Shown: piece after piece, positions 2,858 through 63,933 of the stretch
Position numbering within the stretch: position 1 is the stretch's first letter
Layout of the letters: the number at the start of each line of letters is the position of its first letter
NCBI GenBank assembly: GCA_965287045.1
Contig: OZ336873.1
Coordinates: forward strand, 11,036,001-11,100,000
Reading direction: 5' to 3'
DNA length: 64,000 nt
Origin: Carcharhinus amblyrhynchos
Lineage: Eukaryota
Notes under the pieces: model-generated
Seen by the model: only the letters and a program-made list of their open reading frames with translations
Told to the model about the DNA's origin: nothing
Database searches by the model: none
Program-made: the position numbers and the translations under genes

Positions 2858-3943
2858 GTTGTCAAATAGGAGACAGAGAGTGGGGGTCAATGGGTGCTAT
2901 TCGGATTGGCGGATGGTGACTAGTGGAGTGCCCCAGGGGTCGGTGCTGGGGCCTCAGCTATTTACCATTTATATAGATGATCTGGAAGAGGGAACCGAGT
3001 GTAGGGTGTCGAAATTTGCTGATGACACCAAGATTGGTGGAACGGCAAATTGTGCGGAGGGTGTGGAGAGTCTACAGAAGGAGCTAGATAGGCTGGGCGA
3101 ATGGACCAGGAAATGGCAAATGGAATTTAACGTTGGCAAGTGCAAGGTGGTCCACTTTGGTAGGAATAATGGTAGGAAGGATTATTACTTACGTGGCGAA
3201 AAACTGCAGCAGGCAACGGTGCAGAGGGACCTCGGGGTCCTTGTGCATGAGTCGCAAAAACCCAGCTTGCAGGTGTCAGGAAGGCGCATGGGATGCTGGC
3301 CTTCATAGCGAGGGGGATTGAATATAAAAGTAGGGAGGTCTTGCTGCGGCTGTATAGGGCATTGGTGAGGCCACAGCTGGAGTACTGTGTGCAGTTTTGG
3401 GCGCCGTACTTACGCAAGGATATTTTGGCCTTGGAGGGAGTGCAGAGGAGGTTTACTAGGCTGATGCCGGAGTTGAGGGGGTTGAGCTATGAGGAGAGGC
3501 TGAATAAACCAGGCTTGTACTCGTTAGAGTTTAGAAGAATGAGGGGAGATCTCATTAAGACGTATAAAATGATGAATGGGATGGATAGGATAGAGGTGGA
3601 GAGACTCTTCCCGCTCAGAAAGGATAGTAGGACTAGGGGGCACAGCCTCAAGATAAAGGGGGGGGGGGGCGGTTTAGAACGGAGTTGAGGAGGAACTTCT
3701 TCACTCAAAGGGTGGTGAATCTCTGGAATTCTCTGCCTGTTGAAGTGGTGGAGGCTACCTCGCTAAATATTTTTAAGACGCGGGTTGATGGGTTTTTGAT
3801 AAGAGAGGGGATTAAGGGTTATGGGGAGAGGGCGGGAATGTGGAACTGAGCCACGACAGATCAGCCATGATCTTATTGAATGGCGGGGCAGGCTCGAAGG
3901 GCTAGATGGCCTACTCCTGCTCCTATTTCTTATGTTCTTATGT
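2858..3943 (+). mobile_element. Young CR1 (HER1-like) LINE, 5'-truncated ORF2 RT and 3' UTR
   Basis: ORF 2859-3308 has GVPQGSVLGP and KFADDTK RT motifs; ORF 3293-3688 has LVRPQLEYCVQFW; frameshifted by a small deletion near 3275 and a G-run near 3658; tail ttcttatgttcttatg. Confidence 0.97.
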
Positions 3944-43335: not shown

Positions 43336-43530
43336 TGATGTGGATGTGCCGGCGTTGGACTGGGGTAAACACAGTAAAAAGTATAACAACACCAGGTTTT
43401 AGTCCAACCGATTTATTTGATAGTAAACGCACAAGCTTTCGAGGTTTCACCTGACGAAGAGGGAAACCTCGAAAGCTTGTGCGTTTACTATCAAATAAAT
43501 CGGTTGGACTAAAACCTGGTGTTGTCAGAC
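43336..43530. mobile_element. Penelope-derived inverted-repeat element (family A) with 13-bp TSD
   Basis: tgttgaattatct at 43323-43335 and 43531-43543; perfect 63-bp arms 43386-43448 / 43463-43525. Confidence 0.88.
43448..43481 (+). ncRNA. Minimal type-I hammerhead ribozyme motif
   Basis: CAC CUGACGA A GAGG-GAAA-CCUC GAA AGCU U GUG: core boxes, 4-bp stem II with GNRA loop, palindromic AGCU helix III, CAC/GUG stem I. Confidence 0.7.
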
Positions 43531-43889
43531 TGTTGAATTATCTGCCAAACAAACCTTCTTCCTTTTTGTCAAGGATGACGCCAGCCAAAGGAGGATTTTC
43601 GCTTTGACGTTTTGCTAAGGTTCCTTTATGATGTATTTGGTTGAACATTGTCTCAATGTTGAGGCAAGTTACTATTTACTCTTCTCTAGCAGCCAGCTGT
43701 TATTGTGAAGAGATTTACAGACACGACGATCTGGTGGATCTCAAATAAATGTCACTGAACAGATTAGTGTCAATAAAGTATCATTGATAATATGACTGAC
43801 GACTTGTTTACTTACTTTACTGATGCTTGATAGCAGGTTTATGGATTAGTATTTGGCCAGGTTATACTTATCCTATTCCTGTTTATAGT

Positions 43890-45437: not shown

Positions 45438-45752
45438 ATAAAGGCAAAATACTGCAGATGTTGAAATCTGAAATAAAAACAGAAAATTTTGGAAAAATTT
45501 AGCAGCCAGAATTTTACTGTCCCATCCACCGCAGAAATTGGAGTGGGCAAGGGGTGGACAATGGGAACGTTTGTTGACATCAGGTAGGATTCTATAGTTT
45601 TGGGCCAAGTGAGGCTGTAAAATCCCACCCAACAGGTCTGACAGCATCTGTGGAGAGAAAACAGAGCAAACATTTCAAGTCAGGCTCTATTCTCTGTCAA
45701 CAGATGCTGTCAGACTTGTTAAGTTTTTCCAATATTTTCTGTTTTTGTTGTT
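45438..45752. mobile_element. Palindromic family-B Penelope-derived element containing a MITE (about 45504-45630)
   Basis: Arms aaaatactgcagatg...cagcatctgtggagag / ctctgtcaacagatgctg...ttttctgtttttg; internal TIRs gccagaattttac / gtaaaatcccaccc. Confidence 0.65.
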
Positions 45753-48700
45753 GAGTAAGAAAGCTCCTTCTGATTATCATTTGGGAATCACAGTCCAAAA
45801 AGGTGGTGGAAGCAGATTCAACAGAAACTTTCAAAAGGCACTGGACATAAAAAAAAATCAGAGCTGTGAGGGAAAAGCAGGCAAATGTGACTAATTGGGT
45901 GGCTTTCAAAAAGTTGGTCCAGGCACAGTAGGCTGAATGCCTTTGTGCCATCTCGTGTAGTTAATTGATTATCAGTATCCATTCACCTATGTTCAGCCGT
46001 GTGCAAAAATCAGCAATACAGAAGCAAAGAACAATATCCAGCCCATGTAAAACTACAGTCTGCTGACACTTCCACAGCTGCCAGAACCAGCTACTGCCAA
46101 GAAGCAAACATAACGTGACAGGCGGAGGCAAGGGTGTAGCAACAATAATTTCCTGTAGCAGGTACAGCTACCATTCAGCAATCCCTAGTGCAGGCTTTAC
46201 ATTAAAACACTTCTGTCACACAGTAAAGTTGTTCTGCAAATGGTCTACAATTCTGCTCATCCCCGGAGTTCTGCTGCTAGTATTCAACCATATTTATTTG
46301 AAATAAAAATTAATGGGCATGGAACACAATAAGGGTTAAATGCCAGTCCAAGTAGAAGCTAAAACCTTACCAAGCTCGACTGCAGAACATCACTATTAAT
46401 GTTTTACACTTTTTTTAAAAAACCTAACTTGCCTCAAGGGCTCTGAAGGTCAGAATTAATTCAGAGTTTTACAGGTGTCCCCTTACAGCCACTTTCTGTT
46501 AAGTACTGTATAGATACTGTGGTAATGTCACCTTAAAATAATAATCATTTGAACTTTACTGCATTTGTACAATCCTGCAGTAAAAATGGATTGCTTCATT
46601 TCACAGAATTATTAGCAGCAAAACGTAGTCCTTTTGTGCTGCCCTATAACTTTACTGCTTCTGCCAGCAGATTTAATATAAGCCAGTTTGTATTAAGATG
46701 TTACTACACCCTTCCAATCCTAATCGCCAATTATGACTCTATTAGCCCTACTTGGCAGCTCATTTGCTCTTGCAGCAGCTGAAGGGGACTAGGAGTAGAA
46801 CCTCTGGTCCTCGTGTTTCTGCTTCGATGAGCACAGCACAGCTGCTGTCATCGGTAGACAGGGATAAGCCAGGACAGCGCCTGCTTCACATAACTACACC
46901 TGACCTTCTGACAATTTAGAGGGAAAAATACCTGCCTAACTGCAGCGAGGAGCTTCCTTCAGATAGAACACTGAGCAAATTAAAGGCAACACAATATATC
47001 TGAGATCTACCCACTAGACACTTCATTAAATTGCTGCTCTTTCTTCTTGTACAGCACTAATAGAATCAGTGGCCTTGTTAGTTGGTGAGTAAAGATCAAT
47101 CACATACAGAGAGACACACTCTCTCTGCTGTCTTCCAGAAAATCACTGGGAAAAAAAGGCCATCATTAGAGTCTATAGTGGCCTTAATGTAAGGCACTTA
47201 AACAAAACACCATCCCATTGCAAACTTCAATCGGTATAAAAAAATACTCAGTGGAACTTGTTAAATCTGGCTGTGAGCAGTGTTGCCTAATATATGACTA
47301 TTTGGTCTTGGTCAAAAGATCATAATGTGCATATGTAAAAAGGCACTAGATTGCCTAAGGCCCAAGGCAGAGGAAAATAATTGCAGCAAAATGCTGAAAG
47401 TGCTCTACAGAGGCTCCTCCAAAGTGAACACCAGTGGGATAGGTAGATATAAATGCTTTGGCTCTACTGGATTCCAGCAACATGTTCCAGTTTCTGTAAC
47501 AGTTCTACAACAGTGGCCTCTACAGAGCTTCAGAATTTACATTTATTTGTATTTGCTTGCTGCAGTGAATCCTACTTAGCCCTTCCGACCTAGGTAATCA
47601 CCAAATAAAAATTGTCAAAGTTCCTTGCAATGCTAGCCTTTAATAAAAATCAGTAAATCTCACAACAGTGCAGTTATCTCAACAAATTTCAACTTGCCAA
47701 GTGACTGAAAGGCACTCGAGGGGTTCAGAGTCACACCATAAATAAAAAGCACACAATTTTGAAACATCATTTGAAACTCAGAAGTGATATAGTATTGAAG
47801 ACACTGGCAATATATTATTCTCTAGCCACTTTTGTTCCTTGCTTAACTACCCAGCATTTCTGTTTTCCACTTTTATAAGTAATTTTCCACCTCTAGTCAA
47901 GTGTTGACATGCAGCTTTCGACTAAGCGTCATTAGAAATGTTAAACCTATGCAAGACCAAAATGGACATTTGACAAGAAAACAGCACTTAAGTTCAGTTA
48001 ATCAAAAGAAGAGCAATATTCCATAAATTATGTGATGTATACAAGGCAACCATCATCTAAAAATGCTGCAGGACGTGCCTACAAATGTTATTCCATTCTT
48101 CACATGAGCACAAAGTGGTGGAGGCATTTTGTCGCAACATTCTGTCCCATTCCTTCTTCTTGTCACCTGATTTAAAGCTAAACAACACAATTCACTTGTA
48201 GGAACTCAGCAGCAGAACTGATGGCCTAGTCAACTGTGAAATACAGAATTATTCACTCTCTCATATTACATTAAACAAAAGTCAGCTGCAAATGCTTTAC
48301 AGCTACAGCACAATCTCTGCATTCTGGCAAGTACGCAAGTCATCAACAGCCTTGGATATGCTGTAACCTTTTAATAGTCGCAGCCAATTCTTATTCTGCA
48401 CACTGAACACAGCTTCTTATGAATTCTATAGCACCTGGTGTTGATTGTACATCCATACAGACCATACGCGAAGCAGTTAAACAGGAAACTTTATTAAATG
48501 CATGCATTTCCTCCATTTGGCAAAAATTCAACTGACACATTTACATAGTCATGGAAGCCATTACTTCACAAAAAATAAATTGAAAATGGAACTTGATTGT
48601 GAAATACAGACAGCATGCAAACACACTCAGATACTGGCAAAAATTTGCTGATAGGGAAGCCGTTGGAAATGGTCCAAAAAGGTGTCAAATGTCACAACCG

Positions 48701-48765
48701 AAGACCAGAATTCGAAAATCAGCAAACTTTGCAATGTGGCATCAAAGCCCTTCTATTGGGTAATG

Positions 48766-49024
48766 ACCTTATGATAGTAACCTGGTATCTCTTATTTTCT
48801 GCACACCAAGACAAAATCTACCCTCTAAAAGACATCCAGGACCTCAAAAGCCAACTTACTTGAAGTCACTGTTGGAATTTAACTATCCTGATTGCAAAAT
48901 AATAAACTATAACATGATATAAATTACTACAAGGACCAAAATGCTTAATCAAAATGCATTTCTCCAGGCATTGGAGATAAATTTTCATGAACTAGCACAC
49001 AAAAATTTTCCCTAGTTGGACAAA
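48766..49024 (+). repeat. 259-bp unique sequence, copy 1
   Basis: accttatgatag...ttggacaaa, identical by eye to 50191-50449. Confidence 0.97.
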
Positions 49025-49057
49025 GGAATTTTTCCCCTAACTTTACCCAGACCTAAT

Positions 49058-49312
49058 TGCACATGGTGGCACAGTGGAACGCACTGCTGCCTCACAGTGT
49101 CAGGGACCTGGATTCGATTCCTGGCTTGGGTCACTGTCTGTCTGTATGGAGTTTGCGTGTTCTCCCTGTGTCTGTTAAGTGCACTGGCCATGCTAAATTG
49201 TCTCTTAGTGTACCCAAATGCCAGAGTGCGGCAACTAGGGGATTTTCATAATGACTTCATTACAGTGTGAACGTAAACCTACTTGTGACTAAGAAATTAA
49301 CTTTAACTTAAC
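49058..49312 (+). mobile_element. HE1-like SINE with alternative tail, internally deleted
   Basis: Head plus ggggattttcataatgacttcatt...cttgtgactaag tail. Confidence 0.85.
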
Positions 49313-49457
49313 TTTTAATTGAACAATAGTTTCTCAAGCACACCACATTTAGATTCAAAATAATATCAGATCTAAAAAAGATTTGATCTCTTCATACAAT
49401 CTCAAAACCACAAAATTAAAAAATGAATGTTGTTGCCATTTTAGTTGTTTTGTAAAT

Positions 49458-50193
49458 TAAGAACATAAGAACATAAGAAATAGGAGCAGGAGTAGGCCAT
49501 CTAGCCCTTCGAGCCTGCCCCGCCATTCAATAAGATCATGGCTGATCTGTCGTGGCTCAGTTCCACTTTCCCGCCCTCTCCCCATAACCCTTAATCCCCT
49601 CTCTTATCAAGAACCCATCAAACCACTTCTTAAAAATATTTAGCGAGGCAGCCTCCACCACTTCAACGGGCAGAGAATTCCAGAGATTCACCACCCTTTG
49701 AGTGAAGAAGTTCCTCCTCAACTCCGTTCTAAACCGCCTCCCCTTTATCTTGAGGCTGTGCCCCCTAGTCCTACTGTCTTTTTTGAGCGGGAAGAGTCTC
49801 TCCACCTCTATCCTATCCATCCCATTCATCATCTTATACGTCTCAATGAGATCTCCCCTCATTCTTCTAAACTCTAACGAGTACAAGCCTAGTTTATTCA
49901 GCCTCTCCTCATAGCTCAATCCCCTCAACTCCGGTATCAGCCTAGTAAACCTCCTCTGCACTCCCTCCAGGGCCAAAATATCCTTGCGCAGGTGCGGCGC
50001 CCAAAACTGCACACAGTACTCCAGCTGCGGCCTCACCAATGCCCTATACAGCTGCAGCAAGACCTCCCTACTTTTATATTCAATCCCCCTCGCTATGAAG
50101 GCCAGCATCCCATTTGCCTTCCTGACCACCTGCTGCACCTGCAAGCTGGGTTTTTGCGACTCATGCACAAGGACCCCGAGGTCCCTCTGCACC
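49458..50193 (-). mobile_element. Young CR1 (HER1-like) LINE, 5'-truncated, uninterrupted ORF2 C-terminus
   Basis: ORF 49557-50192 (211 aa) nearly identical to ORF 55284-55982; tail taagaacataagaacataagaa on +. Confidence 0.97.
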
Positions 50194-50449
50194 TTATGAT
50201 AGTAACCTGGTATCTCTTATTTTCTGCACACCAAGACAAAATCTACCCTCTAAAAGACATCCAGGACCTCAAAAGCCAACTTACTTGAAGTCACTGTTGG
50301 AATTTAACTATCCTGATTGCAAAATAATAAACTATAACATGATATAAATTACTACAAGGACCAAAATGCTTAATCAAAATGCATTTCTCCAGGCATTGGA
50401 GATAAATTTTCATGAACTAGCACACAAAAATTTTCCCTAGTTGGACAAA
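50191..50449 (+). repeat. 259-bp unique sequence, copy 2 (at the CR1 5' junction)
   Basis: Identical to 48766-49024; shares acc with the CR1 end. Confidence 0.97.
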
Positions 50450-50544
50450 TTTCATTATCATTTTGGATGATTACAAAGAAACTCACATTTTGGTAGAGGT
50501 TATCGTGCCCTTAGGAAGTCCAAGAGTTTGCTGTGACCAATTAC

Positions 50545-50840
50545 TTACTTTGAAGCATAATGTTTGTGTAAAGTAGTGCAACACAATGGCCAATCTACAT
50601 ATGACAAGGCAAGACAATCAGCAAACAATGAATAACCAAATAATCTGCTGTTGCTGATGATGTATGTGGAGGTAGGGGTTGTTGGCCAGAATGCTGGGAA
50701 TAAAAACTCGTTCTTTTTCAGAAAGATACCATTTATGTTCACATGCGGGTGGCAAGCACAAAGTCATTTAATCCAACTGACAGCATGTCGAACAATGCAG
50801 CACAGCCTCAGTACTGCATTGACGTGTTGGATGTGTGCTC
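50545..50840 (-). mobile_element. SacSINE1/Deu-like SINE remnant
   Basis: accaaataatctg...ttggccagaatgctggg...gcagcacagcctcagtactgca. Confidence 0.55.
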
Positions 50841-50869
50841 CTGTCCATGCCATAGATATGAAGGTTAGG

Positions 50870-51097
50870 TGTAATGACTTCAATCAGGCTATTGAGGTTG
50901 GCCTATTGGAAAAAAAGTTCCCTGATTAAACAATCAGTTGATGGGCCAATCAGGGAGTCTTTTCCTTGTAGTTAGCCGGGAGTGTCAGTTCCTCTGGCAC
51001 TCCTGAAGGTAGACTGTTAGCACTCTGTGTACTGCTGTTAGAATTGTAAATAAAGGGATTTTTGTGAAAGAACTTCTGCCTCTGAAGACTTTTAACA
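50870..51097 (+). mobile_element. Solo-LTR-like insertion
   Basis: TGTAAT...CCAAT...AATAAA...TTAACA, 228 bp, between SINE-like flanks; no TSD seen. Confidence 0.5.
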
Positions 51098-51267
51098 GTG
51101 TCCAACGATGTGTAGATGGATTAGCCATGGGAAATGTGCAAGGTTATGGGGATAGGGTGGGGTAGACAGTGTGGGTAAGATGCTCTGTCAGACAGTTGGT
51201 GCAGACTCGATGGACCGAGTGGCCTCTTCTGCACCACAGGGATTCTATGGTTCTCTGATTCTATGAT
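51098..51267 (+). mobile_element. HE1-like SINE, 3' part
   Basis: ggtgcagactcgatggaccgagtggcctcttctgcacc...gattctatg. Confidence 0.75.
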
Positions 51268-55020: not shown

Positions 55021-55305
55021 GTGTCTCCGGATCGCCCTGGAGTTTTCAAACAAAAGGAATTTCAGTCCGATATAGAAAGTCCAAATGGCCAAAGCGTTGT
55101 GGCTTTTGTAGGTTGCATGTATCCCTGTTCTGGCTGTTCAGGCTTGGTCAGTATCCTCTGAATCTCGGAACCTTTTAAGACCCTGCCAAAGACTGTCCCA
55201 TCTGTACCTGTTGGGAGATGCAAGAGACACATGTGGGGTTCGGAACGACCAGGAGAGTGTGAAAGGGCTCATTTGGATGCACTTTGAGTAGAGTCCCCAC
55301 TTCCA

Positions 55306-56081
55306 AGGACTATTACTTACGTGGCGAAAAGCTGCAGCAGGCGACGGTGCAGAGGGACCTCGGGGTCCTTGTGCATGAGTCGCAAAAACCCAGCTTGCAG
55401 GTGCAGCAGGTGGTCAGGAAGGCGAATGGGATGCTGGCCTTCATAGCGAGGGGGATTGAATATAAAAGTAGGGAGGTCTTGCTGCAGCTGTATAGGGCAT
55501 TGGTGAGGCCGCAGCTGGAGTACTGTGTGCAGTTTTGGGCGCTGCACCTGCGCAAGGATATTTTGGCCCTGGAGGGAGTGCAGAGGAGGTTTACTAGGCT
55601 GATACCGGAGTTGAGGGGATTGAGCTATGAGGAGAGGCTGAATAAACTAGGCTTGTACTCGTTAGAGTTTAGAAGAATGAGGGGAGATCTCATTGAGACG
55701 TATAAGATGATGAATGGGATGGATAGGATAGAGGTGGAGAGACTCTTCCCGCTCAAAAAAGACAGTAGGACTAGGGGGCACAGCCTCAAGATAAAGGGGA
55801 GGCGGTTTAGAACGGAGTTGAGGAGGAACTTCTTCACTCAAAGGGTGGTGAATCTCTGGAATTCTCTGCCCGTTGAAGTGGTGGAGGCTGCCTCGCTAAA
55901 TATTTTTAAGAAGCGGGTTGATGGGTTCTTGATAAGAGAGGGGATTAAGGGTTATGGGAAGAGGGCGGGAAAGTGGAACTGAGCCACGACAGATCAGCCA
56001 TGATCTTATTGAATGGCGGGGCAGGCTCGAAGGGCTAGATGGCCTACTCCTGCTCCTATTTCTTATGTTCTTATGTTCTTA
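55306..56081 (+). mobile_element. Young CR1 (HER1-like) LINE, 5'-truncated, uninterrupted ORF2 C-terminus
   Basis: ORF 55284-55982; tail ttcttatgttcttatgttcttat. Confidence 0.97.
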
Positions 56082-63005: not shown

Positions 63006-63822
63006 ATTCTATGTACACCACATTTGGAAACCTGGTGCCTTTAGAAATACATGGATAAAAAATGAGAGCTAAGACATGTTTTCAATATTTTCTATTGCAT
63101 GTAAAGTCAAAAAGCTACAATTTCTACACAACACAGAAGTAGACATATGAAATATGTTAATGGTTATGAATTATATTAGTTTCTGGATTATATTGCGTGC
63201 AGTGTTATGGAATTTGAAAATTATATTTTTGAGTTCAGCACTTTTTTATGGACACCAGAGTAATTTACTTTAATAAAATGTTGAATTGCAATATTCCCAA
63301 AGTGACTGTACAGAAGATGCTACATAAACAGCTACATGATATTAGTCTCCCAGTCCCCATGCACATTGACCTATTGTTCTCAATATTAGCCAGCAAACAC
63401 TTAGCGCATTCTTATGACTTTGCTCTGTCCAATTTTAATAGCAGTGTTAATCTGTTTTATGCAAATTGATCATACAAAACGGCCCAGAAGCAATCCCTCC
63501 GTTACTGCACTCGGCATTAATTTCCATGTTGATGTTACTCTCTTAATTACCAGAACTTTGCATTGCTTTATTCAATCAGTTACTTCTCCATTTCAAAACT
63601 TCTTCCCCATTCTGTGCTTTTCCAACAATGTGTTAAATACTATTCTCTGATGTGGCACTCTGTAGTCTAGAAATATAACATTTACTGAGTTTGTCTCATC
63701 AACACAGTTAATTCTCAAAAAAACTCCAGTAAATGTATCAATCAAGCTCTATCACTTGTTGACTACTTATTAATATGTTCGATGTCCCCTGATGCCTTTC
63801 AATGGCTTTCTCCCAAATGCTG

Positions 63823-63933
63823 AAAGTGGAACTGAGCAGCGACAGATCAGCTATGATCTTATTGAATGGCGGGGCAGGCTCGAAGGGCTGGATGGCCTAC
63901 TCCTGCTCCTATTTCTTATGTTCTTATGTTCTT
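63823..63933 (+). mobile_element. Young CR1 3' UTR-only insertion
   Basis: aaagtggaactgag...cctatttcttatgttcttatgttctt, nearly identical to 55971-56079. Confidence 0.95.

What the first reader, a model, noticed from the sequence alone, without database searches (positions are those of the whole stretch)
48766..50460. Exact 259-bp locally templated duplication at the 5' junction of a young CR1
Seen: order is A (48766-49024), B (about 433 bp including an old SINE), CR1 on minus (tail at about 49458, 5' break at about 50193), A' (50191-50449), C. A and A' look identical. A does not abut the LINE tail, so this is not an ordinary TSD. The CR1/A' junction shares acc (CR1 ...ctctgcACCg, A gACCttatg). 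The A'/C junction reads ggacAAATTtc, and the B/tail junction reads gtAAATTaag. Inference, model 1: the empty site was A-B-aaatt-C; first-strand cDNA primed at the end of B copied about 735 nt of CR1, jumped by acc microhomology to a template about 690 bp upstream (DNA, or a minus-strand host pre-mRNA), copied 259 nt and rejoined at aaa. Model 2: B is a 3' transduction and A is a giant TSD. Either would be unusual for CR1, whose TSDs are normally absent or only a few bp.
Basis: partly seen in the sequence, partly recalled or inferred. Interest (0 to 1): 0.7.

Follow-up and report, generated by a model that had tools for sequence, protein, structure and literature searches.

The report
Neighbouring DNA copied into CR1 insertion
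A young jumping-gene fragment carries at its broken front end an exact 259-base copy of DNA lying 433 bases behind it, and related species lack both pieces, so the copy was likely made while the insertion was being sealed, a rare but already known kind of repair scar with no sign of function.

Summary
A (48766-49024) and A' (50191-50449) are 259/259 identical and flank B plus a 736-nt 5'-truncated CR1 on the minus strand. Contigs from two related organisms carry A-B and the empty site: in one, B is joined straight to C at the predicted 5-nt target, with neither CR1 nor A'. A, B's unique part and C are otherwise single-copy. I favour synthesis primed by the upstream target end on the resected downstream flank over a cDNA jump, but sequence cannot separate the two. 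None of 125 other young copies has such a long flank copy; short templated fillers are common. The class is known: ZfL2 5' extra nucleotides, L1 templated insertions, repair-mediated duplications. Caveat: only the A|C joint was seen in read-derived contigs of this species. Real, rare, neutral, known in kind.

The parts
48766..49024 (+). A: native single-copy host DNA, donor of the duplication; lies 434-692 nt beyond the CR1 tail
   Evidence: present once, followed by B, in organisms A and C
49025..49453 (+). B: native spacer, not transduced; holds an old SINE (about 49062-49320, +)
   Evidence: unique part single-copy; in the empty allele of organisms A and C; SINE from self-blast
49454..49458 (+). 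TSD copy 1 (AAATT), the primed end; 49458 is also in phase with the CR1 tail (1-nt overlap)
   Evidence: empty site holds the 5-mer once (X5 record 18)
49458..50193 (-). 5'-truncated CR1-clade LINE, 736 nt: end of ORF2, 3' UTR, octamer-repeat tail; very young family
   Evidence: 40 of 40 scored places at 99% or more; 99.5% to the long copy L116, whose ORF2 has endonuclease and RT domains
50191..50193 (.). 3-nt microhomology (ACC) shared by the CR1 break point and the start of A
50191..50449 (+). A': templated copy of A (253 nt unambiguous plus 3 nt of microhomology at each end)
   Evidence: 259/259 identical; absent from the empty allele; A|C joint in contigs of S1 and S2
50447..50451 (+). TSD copy 2 (AAATT); its first 3 nt are the microhomology with the end of A
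   Evidence: X5 record 18 joins 49453 to 50447
50452..50897 (+). C: native single-copy flank on the 5' side of the element

Best explanation
This is a young 5'-truncated CR1 insertion with an ordinary 5-bp target-site duplication, into whose 5' joint a 259-nt copy of host DNA from 433 nt beyond the tail was likely written during the same integration event. Shown: the empty site A-B-AAATT-C, the TSD enclosing CR1 plus A', and the 3-nt microhomologies at both new joints. Inferred steps: (1) the element's endonuclease cut the two strands 5 nt apart; (2) the end of B primed about 735 nt of cDNA; (3) the downstream (B/A) end was resected or opened for at least 692 nt; (4) the last three bases of the upstream 3' overhang paired with AAA at 49022-49024 and a host polymerase or the RT copied 256 nt of A; (5) the new end released, paired through ACC with the cDNA, and second-strand synthesis and ligation closed the site. 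About 0.9 that it is a templated insertion coupled to this CR1 integration. Within that, about 0.55 for priming by the upstream end on DNA, 0.35 for a cDNA jump onto DNA, 0.1 for an RNA template. No function is indicated.
For: Empty allele in organism A: 49453 joined to 50447, depth 8.6, and flank-A-B. Organism C agrees. A, B-unique and C are single-copy. The right end of A' falls inside the intact TSD, which ties the copy to the insertion. Chance of 3 nt or more of microhomology at both joints is about 0.003. Family behaviour: 5-7-nt TSDs in 26 of 126 copies against 4.8 expected from swapped flanks; templated repeats of 12 nt or more at the 5' joint in 10 of 126 against 1 of 126 at control sites, 8 after removing one insertion in a tandem array and one abutting an older CR1 tail. 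The A|C joint, which the ancestral allele lacks, is in contigs of S1 (X1, X2; possible source) and of a second sample S2 (X4) at depth 10-15. [quoted passage not shown]
Against: No contig of X1, X2 or X4 showed the A|B, B|tail or CR1|A' joint, and 49320-49379 had depth 0 in X2 and X4, so the filled allele is confirmed from reads at one joint only. Nothing in the sequence tells which strand did the copying. AAA triplets much nearer the cut were passed over, which a simple end-scanning model does not explain. The L1 templated insertions cited mostly come from within 15 bp of the site, unlike this donor. Organism B and organism D gave no cover at the informative joints.
Confidence: 0.85

Rival explanations
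1. First-strand jump: the cDNA left the CR1 RNA at ACC, copied 256 nt of the minus strand of A (DNA, or a minus-strand host transcript) and then paired with the upstream overhang at AAA. Same product, different priming strand.
For: Fits every joint. SDSA-like cDNA switching is the published proposal for L1 templated insertions, and template jumps for ZfL2-2 fillers. Backward jumps within the CR1 sequence occur in this family (L012, 105 nt).
Against: It needs the minus strand of A as template, the strand that 5' resection of that end would remove, so the cDNA must invade duplex DNA with 3 nt of pairing (inference). No host exon was found nearby: 0 of 131 stop-free frames at 42-58 kb passed a Pfam cut-off, and only an RT hit among 62 longer ones. 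The DNA beside A diverges as fast as A (6 differences in 166 nt against 7 in 259).
Confidence: 0.3
2. Assembly artefact or merged haplotypes: the individual carries a plain A-C deletion allele and a CR1 allele, and the assembler fused them.
For: Contigs of S1 and S2 read flank-A-C and lack B's unique part.
Against: In Logan contigs every 31-mer occurs once and the graph is simplified with SPAdes-like heuristics, so two A copies must collapse. The missing pieces are short unique links between very high-copy repeats, which such cleaning tends to drop (recalled, not tested). The rival needs an independent deletion ending inside the CR1's TSD and a seamless false joint in mid-CR1. No N and no second haplotig.
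Confidence: 0.05
3. Two separate events: an ordinary CR1 insertion, and an earlier or later repair-mediated duplication of A at the same spot.
For: Size (259 nt) and distance are within the range of repair-mediated duplications (mean 162, maximum 619 bp, donor under 5 kb).
Against: The A' end lies inside the intact 5-nt TSD, and there is no TSD around the CR1 alone. A' has 0 differences from A. The relative with the empty site lacks both pieces.
Confidence: 0.05
4. Model 2: B is a 3' transduction and A a 259-bp TSD.
For: A and A' are direct repeats around B plus CR1; flank-A-C contigs exist in S1 and S2.
Against: B lies between A and C in organisms A and C; B-unique has no second place in the genome; a true 5-bp TSD exists.
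Confidence: 0.01

Closest known systems
5' extra nucleotides of zebrafish ZfL2-1/ZfL2-2 (CR1-1_DR/CR1-2_DR), 'annealing' 5'-end-joining pathway (PMC4245944 passages; PMC4760211 parts 1-2 of 4; PMC2666801 passages)
   Same: About 5-bp TSD, filler at the 5' joint copied from flanking or LINE DNA, microhomology.
   Different: There 'several' nucleotides in cultured-cell and zebrafish inserts; here 253-259 nt from 433 nt away, in a germline CR1 of another host. The primary paper on filler origin (Kajikawa 2012) was seen only as cited.
L1 'templated insertions' (10.1101/2024.08.27.596794, section 4 read whole; PMC11702581 passages and Fig. S9-S10 legends; its 2026 version, passages)
   Same: A LINE fused at integration to a duplicated piece of local genomic DNA; rare (22 among about 3,600 solo L1s).
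   Different: Somatic or engineered human L1; templates typically under 250 bp and within 15 bp of the site. Here a CR1, germline, donor 433-692 nt off, direct orientation, on the 3' side.
Repair-mediated duplications (Pace et al. 2009, PMC2671141; abstract and sections 6-7 read)
   Same: Germline copy of 50-619 bp from a donor under 5 kb away, microhomology at the joints.
   Different: Defined as non-retrotransposition events; here the break was made and partly filled by a LINE.
mRNA/LINE-1 5' chimeras, trans-splicing type (10.1101/2025.02.02.635956, passages)
   Same: Host sequence in sense at the 5' end of a LINE inside one TSD.
   Different: A' is not a recognisable exon, comes from the insertion site itself, and the CR1 has no AG before the joint.

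Membership tests
CR1-clade LINE | ORF2 with APE endonuclease and RT | tested here: met
   Long family copy L116 (99.5% to the focal piece): RVT_1 E 3e-34, Exo_endo_phos E 8e-12. The focal fragment itself holds only the C-terminal part, no Pfam hit.
CR1-clade LINE | ORF1 with esterase (GDSL-like) domain | tested here: inconclusive
   Lipase_GDSL_2 E 1.7e-5, 25.8 bits, below the curated cut-off of 32.9; link to CR1 from a cited title and recall.
CR1-clade LINE | 3' end of short tandem repeats, no poly(A); frequent 5' truncation | tested here: met
   Octamer tail and scattered 5' ends.
CR1-clade LINE | Short TSD (peak 3-5 bp for L2/CR1, PMC4245944) | tested here: met
   5 bp here, checked against the empty site; 5-7 nt in 26 of 126 copies against 4.8 expected.
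CR1-clade LINE | RT phylogeny places it in CR1 rather than L2 or a related clade | not tested
   No reference RT set at hand; no tree built.
Flank-templated insertion at a LINE 5' junction | Non-element sequence between the 5' break and the target, copied from local DNA | tested here: met
   A' = A, 259/259, otherwise single-copy.
Flank-templated insertion at a LINE 5' junction | Empty site lacks both element and filler; one TSD encloses both | tested here: met
   X5 record 18; X8 record 32 consistent, its continuation not shown.
Flank-templated insertion at a LINE 5' junction | Microhomology at the filler's joints | tested here: met
   3 nt at each end, joint chance about 0.003.
Flank-templated insertion at a LINE 5' junction | Whole structure present on single molecules | tested here: inconclusive
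   Only contigs were available; A|C seen, CR1|A' and B|tail not seen.
3' transduction with long TSD | Transduced segment absent from the empty site and present beside a source element elsewhere | tested here: not met
   B is in the empty site and single-copy.
Repair-mediated duplication (Pace 2009) | At least 50 bp, donor within 5 kb, microhomology | tested here: met
Repair-mediated duplication (Pace 2009) | Not part of a retrotransposition event | tested here: not met
   A' sits inside the CR1's TSD; it works like one but is not filed as one.
Trans-spliced mRNA/LINE chimera | 5' piece is an exon ending at a donor, joined to an AG acceptor in the LINE | tested here: not met
   A' ends at an AG/GT-like motif on minus, but the CR1 has no AG before the joint and A' has none before its start; no exon evidence.

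The most novel reading that the evidence does not exclude
The 259-bp direct repeats made by the templated copy have already recombined, so that a true flank-A-C allele segregates in this species. A CR1 insertion would then erase itself together with 433 bp of host DNA and leave a clean deletion with no retrotransposon trace: a hidden route from LINE activity to small deletions, caught with the empty, filled and collapsed states in view. The flank-A-C contigs without B in both samples fit this, though graph collapse explains them as well.
Probability: 0.1. Interest if true: 0.55.

Novelty: new member of a known kind. Interest (0 to 1): 0.27.

Why it matters
It is a clean germline example, with the empty site in hand, that CR1 integration can duplicate a few hundred bases of distant flank, extending to CR1 what is known for L1 and zebrafish L2-type LINEs. 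It implies that the primed end can be opened for about 700 nt during integration (inferred), and it warns that long direct repeats near a LINE are not always TSDs or transductions. It touches no recognisable gene, is rare in the family (0 of 125 other copies) and does not change the accepted picture.

Tried and rejected
Local source or inversion with the inverted CR1 copy at 55305-56081: it is 99.3% identical, less than copies on other contigs (up to 99.7%), and B-C is colinear in organism A; rejected. Transduction donor: none. Host exon at or near A: Pfam negative (three weak hits below cut-off), Rfam negative for 48000-51200, no constraint against organism C. Trans-splicing: no acceptor in the CR1. 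Runs X6 (organism B) and X12 (organism D) did not cover the informative joints. Contig depth was too noisy to count A copies or call zygosity. Apparent second cases in the survey: L089 is an insertion into a tandem array; the inverted match around L115 is another young repeat. Donor distance (692 nt) being close to cDNA length (735 nt) was noted and set aside as untestable. Gilbert 2005 and Ichiyanagi 2007 were not held. A search for CR1 + extra nucleotides + templated + insertion site + duplication found 0 papers; the listing for CR1/TSD/microhomology/shark showed no study of shark CR1 junctions (listing only). Subscription papers are not searched.

Full report
Observation. A (48766-49024) and A' (50191-50449) are identical over 259 nt, 1425 nt apart. 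Between them lie B (49025-49457, with an old SINE) and a 736-nt LINE fragment on the minus strand (49458-50193) ending in an octamer-repeat tail. A is found only at these two places in the 2.92-Gb assembly; B's unique part (49300-49470) and C (50450-50850) are found once. The window has no N. ACC at 50191-50193 belongs to both the CR1 and the start of A; AAA at 50447-50449 ends A'; AAATT stands at 49454-49458 and at 50447-50451.

The element. The family is very young: 40 of 40 scored places match the fragment at 99% or more, the nearest with 2 differences in 736 nt. A longer copy, L116, has an open frame with endonuclease and RT domains and an upstream frame with a weak GDSL-like hit. With the tandem-repeat tail this fits the CR1 clade; no tree was built. 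That the host is a shark or ray is recalled from the SINE/LINE type and stated in earlier AI notes; I did not test it. The inverted copy at 55305-56081 (99.3%) is no closer than copies elsewhere and is not the source.

The empty site. Public runs holding 46000-49060 include the possible source S1, a second sample S2 of the same study, and several other organisms. In organism A (7 differences in 1,031 laid letters, 0.7%) one contig runs flank-A-B and another joins 49223-49453 directly to 50447-50901 (X5 records 17, 18). That is the predicted empty site, holding AAATT once, with no CR1 and no A'. In organism C (24 differences in 707, 3.4%) one contig runs 48600-49110 and another covers 49263-49458 and goes on for 463 letters that are not the CR1 tail (X8 records 25, 32). 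B is therefore native, the TSD is 5 bp, and the inserted 993 nt are CR1 plus A'. Transduction with a giant TSD is refuted.

Is the filled allele real? Contigs of S1 (X1, X2) and S2 (X4) read flank-A-C without a difference in A or C, at depth 10-15. So the A|C joint, absent from the ancestral allele, exists in reads, and in a second sample. But no contig showed A|B, B|tail or CR1|A', and 49320-49379 had no cover in X2 and X4. Logan contigs hold each 31-mer once and are simplified with SPAdes-like heuristics (PMC12424806, passages), so A and A' must collapse. The missing pieces are short unique links to repeats of enormous depth, which such cleaning tends to remove (recalled, not tested). A true A-C allele cannot be excluded, but the simplest origin for it is recombination between A and A', which presupposes the filled allele. 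A pure artefact would need a deletion ending inside the TSD and a seamless false joint in mid-CR1; I give it about 0.05.

Family survey. 160 loci gave 136 distinct copies; 126 had a locatable 5' joint with at least 300 nt of flank. Ten were dropped: five reach the 5' end of the reference and five had too little flank; one locus lacked a usable tail. Copies were the best-scoring matches to four queries, not a random sample, and 3' flanks were 1.2-2 kb. A near-identical flank copy of 25 nt or more at the 5' joint was found only in the focal copy and in L089, which is an insertion into a tandem array. So 0 of 125 others, an upper 95% bound near 2.4% (hand calculation). TSDs of 5-7 nt occur in 26 of 126 against 4.8 expected from swapped flanks. 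Templated repeats of 12 nt or more at the joint occur in 10 of 126 against 1 of 126 at control sites, 8 after removing L089 and L078. Templated synthesis at the 5' joint is thus habitual in this family, and the focal copy is its long tail.

Mechanism. Shown: one TSD encloses CR1 and A'; both new joints carry 3 nt of microhomology (joint chance about 0.003); the right end of A' lies inside the TSD, which ties the copy to the insertion. Inferred: a 5-nt staggered cut; cDNA primed on the end of B; resection or opening of the B/A side for at least 692 nt; the upstream overhang paired by its last three bases at 49022-49024, copied 256 nt of A, let go, paired with the cDNA at ACC, and finished the second strand. 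The product is the same either way, so this is a preference (about 0.55 against 0.35, and 0.1 for an RNA template). It does not explain why nearer AAA triplets were skipped. For an RNA template there is no support: no Pfam-supported exon among 131 frames at 42-58 kb or 62 longer ones, no Rfam match, no constraint beside A, and no splice acceptor in the CR1 at the joint.

Comparison. About half of zebrafish ZfL2-2 copies have 5' extra nucleotides, largely copied from flanks, and L2/CR1 TSDs peak at 3-5 bp (PMC4245944 passages; PMC4760211 parts 1-2; PMC2666801 passages). [quoted passage not shown] Germline repair-mediated duplications average 162 bp, reach 619 bp and come from under 5 kb (PMC2671141). 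PMC2912911 (passages) added nothing specific; 10.1101/2025.02.02.635956 (passages) supplied the trans-splicing comparison. I found no paper on such fillers for CR1 itself, but two key papers were not held. An unchecked note from this scan reports 44-100-nt copies from 0.5-1.3 kb away at LINEs of another shark-like genome; it is a lead, not support.

Verdict. Real with high probability, explained, neutral, and a new member of a known kind, at the long and distant end of its range. Interest 0.27. The boldest reading left open is that A and A' have already recombined to give a real A-C allele, an insertion that erases itself with 433 bp of host DNA (probability 0.1).

Noticed in passing
window 49458-50193 (-) and 55305-56081 (+): Two 99.3% identical copies of the same young CR1 face away from each other 5.1 kb apart, a possible substrate for inversion; B-C is colinear with organism A, so none has happened at the left copy.
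   Followed up: partly
L012 (G000:C10:88.87 Mb), 5' joint: About 105 nt match the element again just 5' of the break, duplicating 67 nt of CR1: a backward template jump within the element.
   Followed up: partly
L103 (G000:C8:58.98 Mb): A 77-nt internal segment of a young CR1 copy is inverted, with direct CR1 sequence further upstream; 5' inversions are better known for L1 (recalled).
   Followed up: partly
L014, L016, L018, L021, L066, L135, L139, L141: Short (11-18 nt) iterated fillers at CR1 5' joints, copied from the element or the flank, resembling synthesis-dependent end joining.
   Followed up: partly
L053 (G000:C2:76.87 Mb) and L078 (G000:C8:64.10 Mb): L053 lacks about 790 nt inside the element; in L078 a CR1 5' break abuts the tail of another CR1 copy.
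   Followed up: no
L115, L116, L150, L157, L159: Long copies (3.8-4.2 kb) of the family; L116 has an uninterrupted ORF2 frame, in line with recent activity.
   Followed up: partly
window 43377-43534 and 45472-45749: A 158-nt near-palindrome (90%) and nested inverted repeats of 33 and 37 nt, MITE-like.
   Followed up: no
window 48704: Sample S2 (X4) differs from the window by A>G, and its contig breaks near 48421, so it likely carries another haplotype; it still has the A|C joint.
   Followed up: partly
window 3177-3943 (+) and 63822-63933 (+): Two more copies of the family in the window: an older one (94.7%, RT hit upstream) and a 112-nt tail fragment.
   Followed up: partly
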